Positions 5,179 through 63,079 of a stretch of DNA of 64,000 bases are shown here, piece by piece; position 1 is the first letter of the stretch; every line of letters begins with the position of its first letter. Where the stretch lies: positions 57,969 through 121,968 of the forward strand of contig CAZFOD010000001.1 in NCBI GenBank assembly GCA_964520545.1, read 5' to 3'. The DNA comes from an uncultured Candidatus Saccharibacteria bacterium (lineage in GTDB: Bacteria > Patescibacteriota > Minisyncoccia > Phycocordibacterales > CAIZLB01). The translations under genes and the position numbers were made by a program. The notes below the pieces were generated by a model, which saw nothing but the letters and a program-made list of their open reading frames with translations, was not told where the DNA came from and ran no database searches.

Positions 5179-6414
5179 TTAAGCAGATGCTTCTTCTGTT
5201 GTAACCTCTTCCTTTGTGTCAGCTGTCTCAAGAGTTTCAATTCTTTCTTCAGGTTTTACATCAGCATTTATCTCATCAACTTCTCCAGAGTCGGCGACAA
5301 CACCTTTCACTGATTGGATATCAATTCTCCAGCCTGTAAGTTTAGCTGCAAGTCGAACATTCTGTCCTCCCTTACCGATTGCGAGTGACTGCTGATCTTC
5401 TGCAACCTCAACAACCGCAGTCTTTTCTGTTTCGTTAAGTTTAATATCAATGACTTTTGCAGGAGAAAGAGATTCTTTGATGAATTCTGCTGCATCTTCT
5501 GACCATTCGATGATATCAATTTTCTCACCACCGAGTTCACTTGTTACTGTGTTTACTCGAACACCACGCTGTCCAACCATTGATCCTACTGGATCAATGT
5601 GAGAATCAGCAGCAAATACAGCAATCTTAGATCGAGCACCAGCTTCACGTGCAATCGCTTTTACTTCAACAGCACCAGAAACAATTTCTGGAACTTCAAT
5701 CTTGAAAAGTTCTGAGAGGAACTTTGGGTGTGAGCGTGATAGTCGAAGGAAAATACCTCGAGGTGTTTCTTCTACACGCATGAGGTACATTCGAAGTCTT
5801 TCACCTTGTCGGTAGTGTTCACCAGGGATTTGTTCTTCATATGGGAGCATTCCAGTAGCTCGGCCCATGTCGATGAAGACATTTCCTCGCTCTTGTCGCT
5901 GTACTGTTCCTGAAATGATTTCTCCTTCTCGCTTTCCGAATTCACCAAGGACAGAAACCTTTTCAGCTTCTCGAATCTTCTGGATGATGACCTGCTTTGC
6001 AGTTTGTGCGGCGATTCGGCCGTAATCTTCCTTTTCTTCAAGAGGAAAGACCATTTCTTCGGCAACCTGAACGTCTTTTTTGATCTTTCGAGCGTTATCA
6101 ATGAGGATATGTCGCTCTTCGTTGAAGAATACCTTCTCGTCAGTAGTTGGTTCTGCTCCTTCTACAGGGGTAGGGAGTTCACTCTCATCAAAAACTACCT
6201 GATCTGGGTCCACAACGATCTTTACCTGGTAAAAATCAGCCTTACCTGTATTTATATCGAATTTAGCCCGTACAAACTGGTCGCGTCGGCCCCATTCCTT
6301 CTTGTATGCAGTAGCTAGAGCCATTTCAATTGCCTCAAGAATCTTTTCACGAGGAATACCCCGCTCTTCTTCAAGCTGATCTAATACTGAGTGAATTACT
6401 TTAAGATCTATCAT
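5179..6414 (-). CDS. nusA: Transcription termination/antitermination factor NusA (S1 plus KH domains, acidic C-terminal tail)
   Basis: The N-terminal MIDLKVIHSVLDQLEEERGIP and the S1/KH region architecture match NusA. 411 aa. Confidence 0.85.
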   Translation of the reverse strand: MIDLKVIHSVLDQLEEERGIPREKILEAIEMALATAYKKEWGRRDQFVRAKFDINTGKADFYQVKIVVDPDQVVFDESELPTPVEGAEPTTDEKVFFNEERHILIDNARKIKKDVQVAEEMVFPLEEKEDYGRIAAQTAKQVIIQKIREAEKVSVLGEFGKREGEIISGTVQRQERGNVFIDMGRATGMLPYEEQIPGEHYRQGERLRMYLMRVEETPRGIFLRLSRSHPKFLSELFKIEVPEIVSGAVEVKAIAREAGARSKIAVFAADSHIDPVGSMVGQRGVRVNTVTSELGGEKIDIIEWSEDAAEFIKESLSPAKVIDIKLNETEKTAVVEVAEDQQSLAIGKGGQNVRLAAKLTGWRIDIQSVKGVVADSGEVDEINADVKPEERIETLETADTKEEVTTEEASA

Positions 6415-6778
6415 ATATTTGGTTGTTATTTAATTGTATCTATCTATATTCTTAGCCATCTTATGGCTCAATAGAGCCTTTTCTGGCAAAAAATTAAGCC
6501 CGCCGGGAGGCGAACTTCTGATGTACACATTATATATGTATATGGGGAATTGTCAACGGATTATATCGTTGGAAAAGTAAGGTTTGATACCAATGGTTTG
6601 TAACAGTAAGTTACCTTTCTGGGTTATCGGTTGTTTGGGTAATTCTACGGGATTTCAACAGCAATGTTTAAAGAATCTTTCTACCATTTGAGATGTTTAT
6701 CTTTTTAAATTTAAAATAGTAATTTAAAAAAGTGAAATAAAGTTTTATACACTCATATGTAAGGCTTTACTGTAAAAA

Positions 6779-40367: not shown

Positions 40368-40712
40368 ATGAAACAACACATTATTTCATCAACACGAGAT
40401 CGACGACGAAAGCGCATTCGCGCGAAGGTTTCTGGTACAGCAGATCGACCTCGACTTTCAGTGTTCAAATCAAACACAACTATTTACGCACAGCTCATCG
40501 ACGATGATGCTGGCAAGACTTTGGCAATGGCCTCAACAAAAGGGTTGAAGGGGAACAAGACAGAGGCTGCAAAGGCAGCGGGGCTTGCTCTCGCAAAGGC
40601 AGCTCAGGGAAACAAAATCGTTGCTGTTGTATTTGATCGAGGCGGCTTTATTTACACAGGACGAGTAAAGGCTCTTGCCGAAGGCGCGCGAGAAGGCGGT
40701 CTCAAATTCTAA
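40368..40712 (+). CDS. rplR: 50S ribosomal protein L18
   Basis: L18 family. Confidence 0.93.
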
Positions 40713-40716
40713 ATAT

Positions 40717-41373
40717 ATGACTGAAGAAAACAAAACACAGGAAAATACAGAAACAACACCAGTAGCCCCAGCTCCAGCTATTGCATCAGTGCTTGCAGCT
40801 ACGGCAACAGGCCCTCAGGCTGCTCCTACTCCATTCCAGCGAAATGATCGACGTGGTGCCTCAGCAGGTGGTCCTCGACGAGATGGTGGACGTGGTGGAG
40901 AGCGACGAGGTGGTCCTCGACGTGAACCTCGCGCTAAGCCAGAGTTTGATCAGAAAATTATCGATATCCGACGAGTAACACGAGTTGCATCAGGAGGACG
41001 ACGATTTAGCTTTGCTGTATCTCTAGTTGCCGGCGACCGAAAGGGTCGTGTTGGTGTGGGTACAGGAAAGGGGGGTGATACAGCGCTCGCTGTAGACAAG
41101 GCAGCTCGAAATGCTAAGAAGAATATGATTCTTGTTAATCTTACAAAAACAGGAAGCATCGCTCATGAAATCAAGGCTAAATATTCTAGCGCGCGTGTTG
41201 AAATGATGCCTGCTCCTGGAAAGGGAATTGTAGCTGGTAGCTCAGTTCGAGATGTTATTGACCTTGCTGGTATCAAAGATATTACAGCAAAGCTTCGATC
41301 TGGAACAAAGAATAAGCTTAACAACGCACGAGCAGCTGTCATGGCTCTTGGCTTGATAAAGAAAGCGCGTTAA
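40717..41373 (+). CDS. rpsE: 30S ribosomal protein S5 with an RGG/Pro-rich N-terminal extension. Start trimmed to MTEENK
   Basis: S5 dsRBD plus C-terminal domain. The track ORF overlaps the rplR end. Confidence 0.93.
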   Translation: MTEENKTQENTETTPVAPAPAIASVLAATATGPQAAPTPFQRNDRRGASAGGPRRDGGRGGERRGGPRREPRAKPEFDQKIIDIRRVTRVASGGRRFSFAVSLVAGDRKGRVGVGTGKGGDTALAVDKAARNAKKNMILVNLTKTGSIAHEIKAKYSSARVEMMPAPGKGIVAGSSVRDVIDLAGIKDITAKLRSGTKNKLNNARAAVMALGLIKKAR

Positions 41374-44660: not shown

Positions 44661-47471
44661 ATGGAACAACGCGGTTTAACATACGAAGGTAAGCAATTTA
44701 GTTCTCCTGAGGAAGAACTTCAATATTTACGACAAGTTGTCGCTAGTAAGGAACGCGGTCTTAGCTCTATTGGTGAAAAGAAAGAGCGTGAAGCAATAAT
44801 TGCAGAAGAACTTTCTACATACAGCAGACAGCAAATGGATAAGGTGTTGCATGAGAGCTACAAGATGCCTGCTCACGAACAGCGAGAGATTGTTCTTGAA
44901 CTTTCTCCTGAGCCTCATGATAAGAAAATAGAAGAATTGCTTTCTGTGATGTATGAGCGCGGAGTGCTGAATGCTTTAGCTGTTGCTGGTGCGTTCAATA
45001 ATCCTCATATCGATGACGACTTCCACCGATTCCTTGTTGAATATATAAAGAAGGGGTTGCCGACACCTGGGCTTAAAGAGACTTTACCCATAGCTAAGGC
45101 TTTGAAACATACTCTGTACGAAGTTTCATTACCAGAGGCAAAGAAAGATGATCAGAAGAAGGTGTTGAAGGAAATGCTTTCATCTATGGAGCAATTCTAC
45201 TCAGGTATGCTTTCTGTTTCAGGTGGTCGCGAGACTGCTGAGGAGAACCAGTTCTCGCTGGAGCTTGCAGTTGCAGAGGGTGGTGAAGAGTTTGTTTTCT
45301 ATGTATCAGTACCTGACAGTAAAGCTGGGCTTTTTGAAAAACAGTTTCTCTCCATATTCTCGAATGCAAAAATAGTTGAAAAGAAGGATAGCTACAACGT
45401 CTTTAATGTCGACGGTTTTTCTGTTGGAGCTGAAGCTGAACAGACAAAGAATCCCATATTTCCAATTAAGCAATATGAACAATTTGATTACGATCCTTTG
45501 AACGTAATATTGAATACATTGTCAAAGATTGAAAAAGATGGGGAAGGGGCATCAATACAAATCATTTTCAATCCAGTTGGTGATTACTACACAAAGCTTT
45601 ACAAAGACGCTCTTGATGAAATCAACAAAGGTACAAGTGTTAAGAAGGCTATCGATATCCGCCATAGTATATGGGGAGAGTTTACAAAAGTTGCTGGGGA
45701 AATGGCTAAGGATATCGCCAAGGAAGCAGTGACAAGTGGTAAGAAGGATGAAAAGAAAGATAAGCCAATTGATCAGATTGCTGTCGAGCAAATCACTGCG
45801 AAAATCTCAAGCCCAATAGCTGAAACCAACATCCGTATTGTCGCTTCTGCAGCCAATCGCCCTCGTGCAGAACATATTCTTTCTGATATGGAAGCGGCCT
45901 TTAATCAATTTGAGAATCCACTAGGCTCAGGATTGAAATTTAAAAGAAAGGAGGGTGGGGAGCTTAATGAGTTGTTCCATAACTTTAGTTATCGCCTGTT
46001 CGATAAGCGAAAGGCACTCCCTGTGTCTTTGCGAGAGTTGACCACCGTCATGCATTTTCCAGTTGAAAGTGTTGTAAGTTCATCTCAACTTAAACAGTCG
46101 AAAGCAGGAACAGCTTCTGCACCGATTGGATTGCCGAAGCAGGGGATTTTCCTTGGAACAAACAAGCATCGTAATACGGAAACAAAGATATATATGAGTA
46201 AGGAGGACAGATTACGTCACTTCTATGCAATTGGACAAACAGGTACAGGTAAATCCACCATGTTGAAAAACATGATTATTCAAGATATCAAAAATGGAGA
46301 GGGAATATGCTTCATTGATCCACACGGCTCCGATGTTCAGGATATCTTGGCACACATTCCTCCAGAGCGCTACGATGATGTCATATATTTTGATCCGTCT
46401 CATGTTGATCGGCCAATGGCACTCAACATGCTCGAATACAATCGAGATTTCCCTGAACAAAAGACATTCGTCGTAAACGAACTTTTTAGCATCTTCCAGA
46501 AGCTGTACGGAGGTGTGCCCGAATCTATGGGTCCAATGTTTGAACAATATTTCCGAAACGCAACAATGCTTGTGATTGAAGACCCGGATAGTGGTTGTAC
46601 ATTGCTCGATGTTTCTCGAGTAATGGCTGTTAAGAGTTTCCGTGATATGAAGATTTCGAAGTGTAAGAATCCAATAGTCGTACAGTTCTGGAAAGAGATT
46701 GCTGAAAAGGCAGGAGGGGAAGGGTCTTTGCAGAACATGGTGCCATATATCACAAGTAAGTTCGATGTGTTCCTTGCAAACGACATCATGCGACCAATCA
46801 TTGCTCAGGAGAAGTCGAGCTTTAATTTCAGAGAGATTATGGACAGCAAGAAAATCTTGCTTGTAAATCTTGCAAAAGGAAGACTGGGGGATATTAACTC
46901 ATCTCTCATTGGTCTCATTCTCGTCGGTAAAATTCTCATGGCAGCACTTTCACGTGTTGATTCATTCGGTAAAGATATGAATCCTTTCTATCTCTACATC
47001 GACGAATTTCAAAATATCACCACACCTTCCATCTCAACCATTCTTTCAGAAGCCCGAAAGTACAAACTTTCTCTAAACATTGCACATCAGTTCATCGCGC
47101 AGTTGGATGAGAATATAAAGGATGCAGTGTTTGGTAACGTTGGATCTATGGCGGTGTTTCGAGTGGGAAGTGAAGACGCTGAGTTTTTGCAGAAACAGTT
47201 TGAACCAGTATTTACCTCAAGCGATATTATGAATATCGATAACATGAATTGCTACTTGAAAATGCTTTCAGATGGAAAGCCAACTCGTCCTTTCAATATT
47301 GAATTCACATGGCCAGAGCCTGGTAACAAAAAGATTGTTGAGAAAATAAAGGAATTGTCGTATCTAAAGTTTGGACAAGACAGGGAAGAGGTTGAAGCTG
47401 CTATTTTGGAGAAGTATAAAAAAGAGCCTGTTCCCGAAAGACCTGCGAGAGAAAATCCGTTTGGTGTATAA
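44661..47471 (+). CDS. Large P-loop NTPase of the HerA/FtsK/VirB4-TraG superfamily (DUF87-like: Walker A GQTGTGKST followed by FIDPHG; Walker B LYIDEFQN) with a roughly 480-aa N-terminal domain of unknown function
   Basis: The motif order matches HerA/TraG-type ATPases. It occupies the position where infA-rpmJ-rpsM-rpsK-rpoA-rplQ usually follow map. Confidence 0.6.
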   Translation: MEQRGLTYEGKQFSSPEEELQYLRQVVASKERGLSSIGEKKEREAIIAEELSTYSRQQMDKVLHESYKMPAHEQREIVLELSPEPHDKKIEELLSVMYERGVLNALAVAGAFNNPHIDDDFHRFLVEYIKKGLPTPGLKETLPIAKALKHTLYEVSLPEAKKDDQKKVLKEMLSSMEQFYSGMLSVSGGRETAEENQFSLELAVAEGGEEFVFYVSVPDSKAGLFEKQFLSIFSNAKIVEKKDSYNVFNVDGFSVGAEAEQTKNPIFPIKQYEQFDYDPLNVILNTLSKIEKDGEGASIQIIFNPVGDYYTKLYKDALDEINKGTSVKKAIDIRHSIWGEFTKVAGEMAKDIAKEAVTSGKKDEKKDKPIDQIAVEQITAKISSPIAETNIRIVASAANRPRAEHILSDMEAAFNQFENPLGSGLKFKRKEGGELNELFHNFSYRLFDKRKALPVSLRELTTVMHFPVESVVSSSQLKQSKAGTASAPIGLPKQGIFLGTNKHRNTETKIYMSKEDRLRHFYAIGQTGTGKSTMLKNMIIQDIKNGEGICFIDPHGSDVQDILAHIPPERYDDVIYFDPSHVDRPMALNMLEYNRDFPEQKTFVVNELFSIFQKLYGGVPESMGPMFEQYFRNATMLVIEDPDSGCTLLDVSRVMAVKSFRDMKISKCKNPIVVQFWKEIAEKAGGEGSLQNMVPYITSKFDVFLANDIMRPIIAQEKSSFNFREIMDSKKILLVNLAKGRLGDINSSLIGLILVGKILMAALSRVDSFGKDMNPFYLYIDEFQNITTPSISTILSEARKYKLSLNIAHQFIAQLDENIKDAVFGNVGSMAVFRVGSEDAEFLQKQFEPVFTSSDIMNIDNMNCYLKMLSDGKPTRPFNIEFTWPEPGNKKIVEKIKELSYLKFGQDREEVEAAILEKYKKEPVPERPARENPFGV

Positions 47472-47477
47472 AAAAAT

Positions 47478-48054
47478 GAGCCCCGGTGCACGAACGATGT
47501 CGTGCCCGGGGCTGTTAGACGCGGAGGGTGTCCCTCGGCGTCGCTATCCTTTTCTGTCGATGGGCTGCGCGTGCCCGATATCTTCGCGCATTCGCGGCGG
47601 CCTCGAAACGAATCACTGCTCGGCCGCCCGTTTTCACAAGACTAACCCACTAACATGACATTCACGGTCACAATCGCGATTGGTCGCCGAGGATCATGCC
47701 CCGGCTAACGTTTTCGCCATGCCGCAAATGAACGAAGCCCCGTTACAAGTCCGAGTGGCTAAGCTCCTCGGAGGGTGACTTCAAGCCGTTCGCGGTACGT
47801 TACTCATCTGCATCCGATGCCTGTCGGAAGGTGCACTCATTTGATAACGTCTGATTTCCCACAGATATTCGAGCAAAGGCACGCTCGTCTATCCCGACAA
47901 CTTTCTACAAGCTCTACCAGGCTCGTCATCCGTTGTCCTTGCCATCTATCATGTAGTAAAGAACCACACGCTAGGATTGGGATCCTGCGTCCGAATAGTC
48001 TGGTTGTTGACTATATTTAGCGATAACGCCCTTTCGGTCGTTCCCATCGCTCAA
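47478..48054 (-). ncRNA. Candidate novel structured ncRNA (about 575 nt, GC-rich, no ORF). Transcribed from a consensus promoter, ended by a 14-bp hairpin plus U7 terminator at 47478-47520
   Basis: A sharp GC-rich block between the AT-rich genes, with no ORF longer than 81 aa in any frame. The reverse complement of 48062-48089 reads TTGACA-16-TATAAT. The reverse complement of 47471-47515 is hairpin agccccgggcacgacatcgttcgtgcaccggggct followed by CAUUUUUUU. Confidence 0.6.
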
Positions 48055-48061
48055 TACAAGT

Positions 48062-48089
48062 ATTATAGCAGTATATGGGAAATTGTCAA
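48062..48089 (-). promoter_or_regulatory. Consensus sigma70 promoter (TTGACA-16-TATAAT) on the minus strand driving the 575-nt RNA
   Basis: + strand tgtcaa at 48084-48089 (-35) and attata at 48062-48067 (-10), when read on the - strand. Confidence 0.6.
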
Positions 48090-48127
48090 TACCTGAAAAA
48101 AGCCTTTAAATATGGTTAAATGAGAAC

Positions 48128-48757: not shown

Positions 48758-49025
48758 GAAAGAATCCATTAATATCGAACTGCAATATTGAAACTTGGTG
48801 TTGTAAAGATTGCAACGCAAAATGAAAGTAGCATAATGAGCACAGGGTTACTGGATATGTTAGCTTAGATTATTTTCAAAACAGGGAGGTCGAGTAGGTT
48901 ACAGCTTTGAGCTCTATCCTCAGACCACCCACCTAGATCACACTAGGTCTAACAATCACGGTAATCCTCGCGGAAACACCCGATGTCGAAAGGCACCGGG
49001 TGTTTGCGCGTCTGGATATTCATTT

Positions 49026-49056
49026 TTTTGTCGGAGGTTCTGGTGTGGGGTATAAT
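49026..49056 (+). promoter_or_regulatory. Sigma70-like promoter TTGTCG-17-TATAAT
   Basis: -35 at 49026, -10 TATAAT at about 49049-49054, upstream of the VanZ-like gene. Confidence 0.5.
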
Positions 49057-62668: not shown

Positions 62669-62676
62669 TTGATGTG

Positions 62677-63079
62677 TGGAGATGCCGGGAATCGAACCCG
62701 GGTGCAGGTGAGTTTCTTAGATGAATCTACGCGACGTAGAGGGTCTTTGCGGCAGAGCCGTTTTAAAGTTCGTTACTAGAAGACAGACAAAACGTAACGA
62801 ACCCGAGCTTTATGGTTTCGGCGGACGATTAAAGCAAATCGTCAACCTATTCTGAATATATACCACCGGCAGTTCTGCTTCAGAAAGACAGAACTGTGAT
62901 GTCGCTAGGCGTGGAGCGTTAGGCTCGGGCTGTTGCGAAGGCGAAGTCCTTCACCGCAAAAAACGGAGAAGCTACCGCTTGTCGTGCTTTAGCACTTAAG
63001 GGTTCCAGCAGTTTTACTAGTTACTGGAGCTAGATCGCGCACAAAGAAGAAATGACACTTGTCGAAGCCAATCATCCCC
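62677..63079 (-). ncRNA. ssrA: tmRNA (transfer-messenger RNA), about 403 nt, immediately downstream of smpB
   Basis: 5' GGGGAUGAUUGGCUUCGACA (tmRNA 5' consensus). Acceptor stem GGGGAUG/CAUCUCC with the G3-U70 alanine identity pair. 3' T-arm GGGUUCGAUUCCCGG, then discriminator A. An internal tag-like frame ends at UAA. Confidence 0.85.

What the first reader, a model, noticed from the sequence alone, without database searches (positions are those of the whole stretch)
47471..48127. About 575-nt GC-rich non-coding transcript with consensus promoter and strong terminator, convergent with a HerA/TraG-like ATPase
Between the 936-aa ATPase and ndk lies a roughly 600-bp GC-rich segment with no ORF longer than 81 codons. 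On the minus strand it is preceded by a textbook TTGACA-16-TATAAT promoter and ends in a 14-bp GC hairpin followed by U7, which is exactly the architecture of a stable structured RNA gene. I could not fit RNase P (no GGAAAGUCC / ACAGAA...GGCUUA P4 strands), SRP, 6S or tmRNA (tmRNA is elsewhere, at 62677-63079). The identity is therefore open. It could be a divergent housekeeping RNA or a new large ncRNA class. The tail-to-tail arrangement with a HerA/DUF87-type ATPase, which is frequent in defence and conjugation modules, makes an RNA-protein system conceivable. This locus also replaces the usual infA-rpmJ-rpsM-rpsK-rpoA segment after map.
Basis: partly seen in the sequence, partly recalled or inferred. 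Interest (0 to 1): 0.8.

Follow-up and report, generated by a model that had tools for sequence, protein, structure and literature searches.

The report
Hypervariable orphan RNA gene cassette
A real, strongly promoted non-coding RNA gene of about 585 nt sits in an insertion hotspot of a tiny Patescibacteria (CPR) genome, but close relatives carry unrelated RNAs, toxin genes or nothing there, so it is a strain-specific accessory RNA of unknown role, not a missing housekeeping RNA or a partner of the neighbouring ATPase.

Summary
Window 47470-48089 (minus strand) is a self-contained, non-coding transcription unit: a perfect TTGACA-16-TGcTATAAT promoter, a ~585-nt body at 55% GC in a 43% GC genome, and a 14-bp hairpin followed by U7. 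It has no coding signal and no Rfam match.

The interpretation mostly fails. The organism is a Paceibacteria (Parcubacteria) MAG. In most relatives retrieved with both genes, the ATPase and ndk genes abut or overlap. The closest GTDB species has an empty site, so the RNA is a 619-bp insertion bracketed by T-runs.

Relatives that keep the same -35 context carry at least six mutually unalignable GC-rich RNAs of about 175, 200, 320, 385, 480 and 575 nt, or a 60-nt stub. More distant relatives hold toxin-antitoxin or unknown genes at the junction. Only one ~27-40-nt module, GCGCG..GGGC(U)ACGCGCAGCCCA, is shared by three allele types.

The RNA is therefore neither housekeeping nor ATPase-linked. 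A probable miniature 6S RNA lies on the other side of ndk and is conserved with covariation.

Best reading: one allele of a hypervariable accessory ncRNA locus. Its function is unknown and was inferred without expression data.

The parts
48062..48089 (-). Sigma-70-type promoter: -35 TTGACA (48089-48084), 16-nt spacer with TG extension, -10 TATAAT (48067-48062).
   Evidence: One search gives 12/12 matches. One search shows that perfect sites are expected 0.05 times per window. The -35 and its upstream context (AACCATAT..GG.TTTTT.CAG...TTGACA) are conserved in L082, L083, L085 and L089. L090, L176 and L177 keep the TTGACA in a similar but not identical context.
47470..48055 (-). Predicted ~585-nt non-coding transcript, from a TSS inferred 7 nt after the -10 element to the end of the U-run.
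   Evidence: Sequence. No called gene. No periodicity and no ORF signal. MFE -227.6 kcal/mol, z = -4.8. No Rfam family. Expression was not tested.
47561..47601 (-). The only module shared with other alleles: GCCGCCGCGAAUGCGCGAAGAUAUCGGGCACGCGCAGCCCA. It has a possible GCGCG/CGCGC stem and a GGGC/GCCC pairing.
   Evidence: The local alignment to L082 is 27 nt, score 35 against a shuffle mean of 19 and sd 2.8. The motif ACGCGCRGCCCA is found at this locus only in window/L081, L082, L089 and L090/L091. The proposed pairings are invariant, so covariation neither supports nor contradicts them.
47518..47542 (-). Penultimate hairpin GACGCCGAGGG-ACA-CCCUCCGCGUC, between the shared module and the terminator.
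   Evidence: Predicted in the MFE and centroid folds. L082/L089 have a different hairpin at the equivalent position. On the plus strand the same palindrome, followed by CCUUUUCU, was flagged as a weak terminator-like site for the ATPase transcript.
47470..47513 (-). Intrinsic terminator: 14-bp GC-rich hairpin (47513-47479) followed by U7 (47476-47470).
   Evidence: The local 150-nt folding z is -4.0. Every allele in relatives ends in its own GC hairpin plus U-run.
47477..48095 (.). The 619-bp segment present here but absent from empty-site relatives. It is bracketed by T6 (48101-48096) and T7 (47476-47470) runs, read on the minus strand.
   Evidence: the blastn alignment to L001 jumps from window 47475 to 48096 with no intervening DNA. 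Searches show the empty sites in L001 (..CTTTTTTATATCCCAAAAGG..) and L095 (..GGTTTTTACAAAGCAAACGG..).
48043..48049 (-). 5' strand CGAUGGG of a predicted long-range helix that closes the RNA body. It pairs with CCCAUCG at 47564-47558, which overlaps the end of the shared module.
   Evidence: Seen only in the MFE and centroid predictions. No comparative support is available.

Best explanation
The segment is a lineage-restricted, stand-alone gene for a structured non-coding RNA. It is one allele of a hypervariable accessory RNA cassette inserted at the ATPase|ndk junction in a narrow clade of Paceibacteria.

**Shown.**
- RNA polymerase has a near-perfect sigma-70-type promoter to start from, and a strong intrinsic terminator stops transcription at the ATPase stop codon.
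- The ~585-nt product is GC-rich, folds better than shuffled controls on this strand, and does not encode protein.
- The cassette is absent from the nearest species. In close relatives it is swapped for unrelated RNAs behind the same -35 element.

**Inferred.**
- The RNA is abundant and acts in trans.
- The conserved 3' part (the GCGCG..GGGC(U)ACGCGCAGCCCA module, a hairpin and the terminator) is the functional handle that binds a conserved partner, either a protein or another RNA.
- The large 5' body is a replaceable, rapidly exchanged domain.
- Alleles move between strains by homologous recombination through the conserved ndk and ATPase flanks.

It is not a housekeeping RNA and is not functionally tied to the ATPase.
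For: - **Transcription-unit architecture and chance levels:**
- **Non-coding:**
- **GC content:** the RNA is 55% GC, against 43% for the genome and 49% for the tmRNA in the same window. Insertions of 100-600 nt at this junction in other relatives, some of which contain ORFs, are 25-42% GC.
- **Strand-specific folding:** body z = -2.8 on the minus strand and -1.4 on the plus strand.
- **Insertion relative to an empty site:**
- **Allele series behind the same -35:**
  - L089/L082, ~200 nt
  - L083, ~175 nt
  - L090/L091, ~320 nt
  - L177, ~385 nt
  - L085, ~480 nt
  - L176, a stub
- **Allele properties:** they cannot be aligned to each other apart from one module. Those tested fold with z = -3.5 to -4.2.
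- **Purifying selection on the 3' domain:** L082 and L089 are 90% identical overall. The last ~105 nt of their RNA is 100% identical, matched only by the neighbouring 6S-like RNA at 98-99%.
- **The junction is an accessory hotspot:** it holds PemK/MazF, Phd-like, MNT/HepT and RelB-like genes and unknown ORFs in other lineages.
Against: - There are no expression data.
- No second, diverged copy of the 575-nt allele was found, so its structure has no covariation support.
- In 150-nt windows only the terminator region folds significantly better than shuffled sequence.
- The shared module is short and is absent or degenerate in L083, L085 and L177. The alleles may therefore not form a single family.
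- The length series from 0 to 575 nt, including a 60-nt stub, also fits a dispensable or decaying sequence.
- No target or partner was identified. Complementarity to the rest of the window is at chance level.
Confidence: 0.55

Rival explanations
1. The RNA is a transcribed but functionless filler. The cassette matters only for its promoter and terminators. The near-palindromic TTGACAA/TTGTCAA -35 could also serve ndk on the other strand. The hairpins insulate ATPase and ndk from each other. The RNA body is a by-product or an eroding remnant of earlier cargo.
For: - Only the -35 context and the U-run end are conserved across alleles.
- Lengths range from 0 to 575 nt, including a 60-70-nt AT-rich stub in L176.
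- Apart from the terminator, local folding is not significant.
- On the plus strand, TTGTCA-17-TTAAAT upstream of ndk can be read from the sequence, and a weak plus-strand terminator-like site follows the ATPase gene.
Against: - Non-functional DNA in these AT-biased genomes should be AT-rich. Other fillers at this junction are 25-35% GC, whereas six independent alleles are 49-59% GC.
- The 3' domain of the L082/L089 allele is perfectly conserved against a 90% background.
- Alleles differ by wholesale replacement, not by graded decay.
Confidence: 0.25
2. The RNA is part of a conflict system, for example an antitoxin or decoy for an endoribonuclease toxin, or an anti-phage or host-interaction RNA. 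It is kept hypervariable by diversifying or balancing selection, and the alleles behave like idiomorphs.
For: - The same junction carries toxin-antitoxin cargo in other lineages.
- In L085 the 480-nt RNA, with its own terminator, sits directly upstream of an orphan PemK/MazF-like toxin gene with no called antitoxin. This resembles the RNA-terminator-toxin layout of type III systems.
- Sequence-unrelated alleles sit between 80-92% identical flanks.
Against: - There is no toxin or other partner gene next to the RNA in the window or in L082, L083, L089, L090 or L177.
- There are no tandem repeats of the type III antitoxin kind.
- There is no small hydrophobic ORF for a type I system.
- There is no match to phage or plasmid records or to viral contigs.
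Confidence: 0.15
3. It is a highly divergent housekeeping RNA (RNase P RNA, SRP RNA or 6S RNA) that Rfam models miss, as reported for some CPR RNase P RNAs.
For: - CPR RNase P RNAs can fall below Rfam thresholds and carry large helix extensions (PMC8172020).
- The promoter is as strong as the nusA promoter and nearly identical to it.
Against: - No RNase P, SRP or 6S hit appeared even when scores down to about 12 bits were reported on a 596-nt slice.
- The RNA is absent or replaced in genomes whose flanks are 75-92% identical.
- A much better 6S candidate lies at 48845-48968.
Confidence: 0.02
4. It is the RNA partner of the convergent DUF8128/TraG-VirD4-like ATPase, forming an RNA-protein system.
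For: Only the tail-to-tail adjacency.
Against: - The ATPase has more than 400 relatives in GTDB genomes, and the 80 best loci contain no homologue of the RNA.
- In most relatives retrieved with both genes, ATPase and ndk abut or overlap.
- The closest species lacks the RNA.
Confidence: 0.03
5. It is a protein-coding gene or a recent pseudogene, possibly read in another genetic code or captured from a GC-rich donor.
For: An 81-codon ORF on the plus strand at 47775-48020.
Against: - There is no 3-periodicity.
- Stop-free stretches are at shuffle expectation in every allele.
- No gene is called, and the flanking genes read normally in code 11.
- There are no Pfam hits.
- The only database hit is an artefact: 13 summed weak matches to a tandem-repeat ORF.
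- There is no similarity to the 146-aa cassette protein of L092.
Confidence: 0.03

Closest known systems
Stand-alone bacterial sRNA/ncRNA genes in variable intergenic regions (own sigma-70 promoter plus Rho-independent terminator)
   Same: Independent promoter and intrinsic terminator, no coding capacity, narrow phylogenetic range, and a location between conserved genes at a spot that also takes up toxin-antitoxin cargo.
   Different: At about 585 nt it is far longer than typical sRNAs. At least six sequence-unrelated alleles sit behind one conserved -35 element in a single small clade. I know of no described precedent for that; this statement rests on my own knowledge.
Large GC-rich bacterial ncRNAs found by GC-rich intergenic-region searches (OLE, ROOL, GOLLD, HEARO, raiA)
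   Same: Similar size to OLE and ROOL, a GC-rich island in an AT-rich genome, and no ORF. This is the signature used by the DIMPL/GC-IGR approach (PMC8723152, PMC11109978).
   Different: No covariance-model match to any of them. Those classes are conserved across many genera with covariation. This RNA has no detectable homologue outside its own strain cluster.
6S RNA (SsrS, RF00013)
   Same: An abundant stand-alone RNA next to housekeeping genes.
   Different: There is no 6S hit for this RNA. A separate conserved RNA at 48845-48968 (+) scores 21.4 bits against RF00013 over the full model. It is found in 13 related loci, and 9 of 31 predicted pairs covary in an 11-sequence alignment.
Diverged RNase P RNA of CPR bacteria (PMC8172020)
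   Same: The host is a CPR bacterium. The RNA is strongly promoted, GC-rich and missed by default Rfam thresholds.
   Different: There are no recognisable CR-I or CR-V/P4 strands and no sub-threshold model hit. It is not conserved even between strains whose ndk proteins are 99% identical.
Type III toxin-antitoxin RNA antitoxins (ToxI-like)
   Same: A promoter-RNA-terminator unit at a hotspot rich in toxin-antitoxin genes. In L085 it is followed by a MazF/PemK-fold toxin gene.
   Different: There is no tandem repeat array and no toxin gene downstream in the window.

Membership tests
Stand-alone bacterial ncRNA gene (generic) | Own promoter upstream of the RNA | tested here: met
   12/12 match to the sigma-70 consensus with a TG extension. 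Expected 0.05 times per window. The -35 is conserved in seven related loci.
Stand-alone bacterial ncRNA gene (generic) | Intrinsic terminator at the 3' end | tested here: met
   A 14-bp GC hairpin plus U7. Local folding z = -4.0.
Stand-alone bacterial ncRNA gene (generic) | No protein-coding capacity | tested here: met
Stand-alone bacterial ncRNA gene (generic) | A discrete transcript is actually made | not testable with these tools
   No transcriptome data are available here.
RNase P RNA (RF00010/RF00011 and relatives) | Match to the covariance model, including the P4 strands (CR-I, CR-V) | tested here: not met
   There was no RNase P hit in E<=10 searches of 1001-nt and 596-nt slices, where hits down to 12.4 bits were listed. 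Smith-Waterman alignment to E. coli M1 RNA is at shuffle level.
RNase P RNA (RF00010/RF00011 and relatives) | Essential RNA conserved among close relatives | tested here: not met
   It is absent in L001 and L095, and replaced by unrelated RNAs in L089, L082, L083, L177, L085 and L090. Whether a true rnpB lies elsewhere in this genome could not be checked.
6S RNA (RF00013) | Model match or rod-like fold with a central bubble | tested here: not met
   No hit, and the predicted fold is multi-branched. A better 6S candidate exists at 48845-48968.
OLE, ROOL, GOLLD, HEARO, raiA, tmRNA, SRP, group I/II introns | Match to the Rfam covariance model | tested here: not met
   Only the tmRNA at 62674-63079 reaches its gathering score in the window. 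Nothing from these families appears at E<=10 in the region or in the other alleles.
Type III toxin-antitoxin RNA antitoxin | Tandem direct repeats in the RNA | tested here: not met
   TRF finds none at score >=30, and the repeat scan finds only short chance pairs.
Type III toxin-antitoxin RNA antitoxin | Endoribonuclease toxin gene immediately downstream | tested here: not met
   Downstream of the terminator is the convergent ATPase gene. Only the L085 allele is followed by a PemK-like gene.
REP/MITE-type repeated extragenic element | Multiple copies per genome | tested here: not met
   No second copy was found in the 64-kb window, where the best match is an 18-nt chance hit, or in the 175 related loci held at that point. 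The whole genome was not available.
RNA-protein system with the DUF8128/TraG-like ATPase | Co-occurrence of RNA and ATPase across genomes | tested here: not met
   The 80 best ATPase loci from GTDB genomes contain no homologue of the RNA. In most of the 36 GTDB loci where both genes were found in order, ATPase and ndk are adjacent without it.

The most novel reading that the evidence does not exclude
The ATPase|ndk junction of this Paceibacteria clade is a dedicated, strongly transcribed 'RNA idiomorph' locus. It would hold a family of structured accessory RNAs that share a promoter, a short 3' handle and a terminator. Their 175-575-nt bodies would be exchanged wholesale between strains under diversifying or balancing selection, for example as decoys or antidotes in phage, toxin or host conflicts of these episymbionts. 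That would be a kind of hypervariable RNA-only locus not described so far.
Probability: 0.15. Interest if true: 0.7.

Novelty: new member of a known kind. Interest (0 to 1): 0.4.

Why it matters
Almost nothing is known about non-coding RNAs in CPR/Patescibacteria, whose reduced genomes leave little room for dispensable DNA.

If the best reading is right, a ~600-bp, strongly promoted, GC-rich RNA gene is being kept and swapped among closely related strains. That would suggest RNA-based accessory functions in these episymbionts. The locus would also be a compact natural experiment: one promoter driving many different RNAs.

If the filler reading is right, the finding is an ordinary strain-specific insertion. 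In that case its main value is a caution. A GC-rich, promoter-plus-terminator 'RNA gene' signature does not by itself indicate a conserved RNA class.

The work also places a likely miniature 6S RNA next to ndk. That is of practical use for annotating CPR genomes.

Tried and rejected
- **Rfam 15.** I ran gathering thresholds on the whole window, then E<=10 on slices of 1001, 596, 226, 361 and 441 nt covering the window, L082, L090 and L177 alleles. Five loci (L001, L082, L083, L084, L085) were also searched at E<=1. Only generic terminator-hairpin noise appeared.\n- **Local sequence searches.** nhmmer and blastn of the RNA against 80 GTDB loci around ATPase homologues, 80 metagenome loci around ndk homologues and 18 contigs of close relatives found nothing. 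The exception was the 3' ~140 nt, including flank, in L082/L089.\n- **Public collections.** blastn against phage and plasmid collections gave no match.\n- **Pattern scans.** The promoter-context pattern found nothing in viral or metagenome contigs. The shared-module pattern gave three hits in GC-rich viral contigs, consistent with my rough chance estimate. Two 20-mers from the RNA body found nothing in viral contigs.\n- **Pseudogene of a cassette protein.** tblastn with the L092/L093 146-aa protein gave only chance hits.\n- **The 81-aa ORF.** A search of 1.84 billion protein representatives returned one artefactual hit.\n- **CsrB-like sponge.** GGA motifs are not enriched.\n- **Repeats.** No tandem or dispersed repeats, MITE or REP elements.\n- **RNase P.** An apparent AGAUGAGUAAC..GAACGGCUUG resemblance to CR-IV/CR-V, and AGAAAGUUGUCGGG to CR-I, is post hoc. 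It sits in the wrong order and spacing and is not supported by alignment statistics or models.\n- **Trans targets.** Complementarity of the shared module or the body to the rest of the window is at chance level.\n- **Common motif.** A search across alleles gave only a marginal CGCGGCGAA(A) signal, present in 5 of 6 alleles against a null maximum of 4.\n- **Covariation.** It could not be tested for the 575-nt allele, because every contig carrying it found by the exact-ndk look-up has the same neighbouring genes as the window contig and was not returned separately.

Full report
**What is there**

On the minus strand of window 47470-48089 lies a complete transcription unit. It starts with a -35 TTGACA at 48089-48084, a 16-nt spacer carrying the extended -10 TG, and a -10 TATAAT at 48067-48062. 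It ends with a 14-bp GC-rich hairpin with one bulge at 47513-47479, followed by U7 at 47476-47470. The last two U positions overlap the stop codon of the convergent ATPase gene. With a start near 48055, the RNA is about 585 nt long.

Perfect consensus promoters are expected 0.05 times in this window, and two exist. The segment is 55% GC, up to 60% locally, in a 42.8% GC window. The other GC-rich 300-nt windows all fall within long ORFs.

**It is not coding**

- The source assembly has no gene call here.
- All six frames are interrupted by stops.
- Three-base periodicity is 1.3, against 7.3 for the ATPase gene and 4.2 for ndk.
- Stop-free stretches are at shuffle expectation.
- The 81-codon plus-strand ORF has no Pfam hit. 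Among 1.84 billion representative proteins its only hit sums 13 weak matches to a tandem-repeat ORF.
- The flanking genes read normally in code 11, so an alternative genetic code is not an issue.

**It fits no known RNA family**

Rfam 15 finds only the tmRNA (62674-63079) in the window at gathering thresholds. Searches at E<=10 on 1001-nt and 596-nt slices list only terminator-hairpin noise at 12-22 bits. They list nothing for RNase P, SRP, 6S, OLE, ROOL, GOLLD, HEARO or introns.

Some CPR RNase P RNAs are known to fall below Rfam cut-offs (PMC8172020), so I checked further. An apparent CR-IV/CR-V-like string is post hoc and in the wrong position.

**Folding**

The whole RNA has an MFE of -227.6 kcal/mol and z = -4.8. 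Without the terminator region, the minus strand gives z = -2.8, with 0 of 100 shuffles as stable. The plus strand gives z = -1.4. In 150-nt windows only the terminator stands out. So the structure signal is real but moderate, it depends partly on long-range pairs, and it has no comparative support.

**Comparative result, the key point**

The organism is a Patescibacteria/Paceibacteria (Parcubacteria) MAG. The identical locus occurs in five contigs.

The closest GTDB species is L001, whose ATPase is 89% identical at the protein level. Its alignment to the window jumps from 47475 straight to 48096. ATPase and ndk are about 30 nt apart there, and the 619-bp segment is simply missing. In most of the 36 GTDB loci where both genes were found in order, the two genes abut or overlap. 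Comparison with empty sites shows the cassette (47477-48095) bracketed by T6 and T7 runs.

I fetched closer relatives through ndk and ATPase homologues. Contents of the ATPase|ndk junction in those relatives:

| Locus | Relatedness to the window | What sits at the junction |
|---|---|---|
| Window / L081 | identical | ~585-nt RNA (the '575-nt' allele) |
| L089 | ndk 99% aa, flanks 91.5% nt | ~200-nt RNA |
| L082 | ndk 95% aa | ~200-nt RNA, ~90% identical to L089's |
| L083 | ndk 94% aa | ~175-nt RNA |
| L177 | flanks ~81% nt | ~385-nt RNA |
| L085 | ndk 84% aa | ~480-nt RNA, followed by a PemK-like gene |
| L090 / L091 | ndk 80% aa | ~320-nt RNA |
| L176 | ndk 89% aa | promoter plus a 60-70-nt stub |
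| L095 | ndk 82% aa | nothing |
| L092-L094 | ndk 80% aa | 146-aa ORF of unknown family |

The RNA-bearing relatives keep the same TTGACA. L082, L083, L085 and L089 match the full context pattern AACCATAT..GG.TTTTT.CAG...TTGACA. L090, L176 and L177 have a similar context.

All RNA alleles are 49-59% GC, show no coding signal and end in their own hairpin plus U-run. Those tested fold with z = -3.5 to -4.2. Pairwise they cannot be aligned, and none matches Rfam.

The only significant shared sequence is a 27-40-nt module, GCGCG..GAAG..UCGGGC(U)ACGCGCAGCCCA. It lies about 80-90 nt before the 3' end in the window and in L082/L089, and further upstream in L090/91.

Further away in the class, the junction holds PemK/MazF with a Phd-like partner, MNT/HepT pairs, RelB-like antitoxins and other ORFs. 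It is therefore a general hotspot for accessory cargo.

**Evidence that the RNA is more than filler**

L082 and L089 are 90% identical over 4.1 kb. The last ~105 nt of their shared RNA allele is 100% identical. The only other 100-nt bins at 98-99% identity are those of a neighbouring RNA, described below.

Other 100-600-nt insertions at this junction, some of which contain ORFs, are 25-42% GC. Repeated GC enrichment across six unrelated alleles therefore argues for selection on structure, not neutral decay.

Against this stand several points. Expression data are lacking. The structure signal in the body is weak. The L176 stub and the empty sites show the RNA is dispensable. No partner or target was identified.

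**Positive control and by-catch**

The intergenic region on the other side of ndk contains a second stand-alone RNA. It has a TTGCAA-16-CATAAT promoter at 48810-48837, a body from about 48845, and a terminator ending near 49030. It gives a sub-threshold full-length 6S hit (21.4 bits, E = 0.016) and folds with z = -5.7.

nhmmer finds this RNA in 13 related loci, including L001, L012 and L002. In an 11-sequence alignment, 9 of 31 predicted pairs show compensatory changes. A conserved functional RNA is therefore easy to detect in exactly the set of genomes where the target RNA is not. This RNA also fills the 6S slot.

**Interpretation**

The housekeeping and ATPase-partner ideas do not.

The best-supported reading (confidence about 0.55) is an accessory, stand-alone structured ncRNA that is one allele of a hypervariable RNA cassette locus. 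By inference, the conserved 3' module, hairpin and terminator form a functional handle, the 5' body is replaceable, and alleles are exchanged by recombination through the conserved flanks.

The rivals are:

- Functionless transcribed filler or insulator, about 0.25.
- A conflict-system RNA such as an antidote or decoy under diversifying selection, about 0.15. The toxin-antitoxin-rich hotspot and the RNA-terminator-PemK layout in L085 hint at this. The absence of repeats and of any toxin gene in the window weakens it.
- A disguised housekeeping RNA, an ATPase partner, or a coding gene or pseudogene, each 0.03 or less.

**Limits**

I could not search whole genomes for copies elsewhere, find the origin of the alleles, test covariation for the 575-nt allele, or check for rnpB and ffs in the rest of this genome.

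Noticed in passing
window 48810-49030 (+): A second stand-alone RNA lies between ndk and the DUF2238 gene. It has a TTGCAA-16-CATAAT promoter, a ~125-nt core at 48845-48968 and a terminator with a U7 run. The core gives a sub-threshold full-length 6S/SsrS hit (21.4 bits against a gathering score of 46.4). It is found in 13 related loci, with 9 of 31 covarying pairs in an 11-sequence alignment. It is probably a shortened 6S RNA that default Rfam thresholds miss.
   Followed up: partly
window 6529-6556 (-), upstream of nusA (5179-6414, -): This is the only other perfect TTGACA-N16-TATAAT promoter in the window. It is 24/28 identical to the promoter of the target RNA, with the shared spacer AATTYCCCATATAC. 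This suggests promoter duplication or conversion, or a shared spacer element. It is followed by a GC hairpin plus U-run in the nusA leader.
   Followed up: partly
L090 1929-2181 and L091 267-519: A ~250-nt AT-rich imperfect palindrome, resembling a MITE, is inserted between the RNA terminator and the end of the ATPase gene in this relative.
   Followed up: no
ATPase|ndk junction in L020, L042, L050, L064, L066, L085, L092 and others: Across Paceibacteria the junction is a hotspot for small accessory cassettes. These include PemK/MazF with or without a Phd-like partner, nucleotidyltransferase plus HepT pairs, RelB-like antitoxins, a 146-aa ORF with no Pfam family, and a small putative membrane or secreted protein.
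   Followed up: partly
L085 3019-3935 (-): An orphan PemK/MazF-like toxin gene has no called antitoxin. It lies directly downstream of that genome's 480-nt RNA allele and its terminator. The layout resembles type III toxin-antitoxin systems, but the RNA has no evident repeats.
   Followed up: no
protein P0121: A 1027-aa predicted 'protein' consists of 13 perfect tandem copies of a 76-aa unit. It is probably a spurious ORF through a 228-nt tandem or rolling-circle-type repeat in some assembly. It matched the 81-aa ORF only through summed weak hits.
   Followed up: no
window 40675-41373 (+): The ORF between the putative L18 and L15 ribosomal-protein genes, presumably S5, appears to carry an N-terminal extension of about 90 aa rich in Ala, Pro, Gly and Arg. 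This accounts for one of the GC-rich outlier windows. The gene identity was judged by eye and not checked against Pfam.
   Followed up: no
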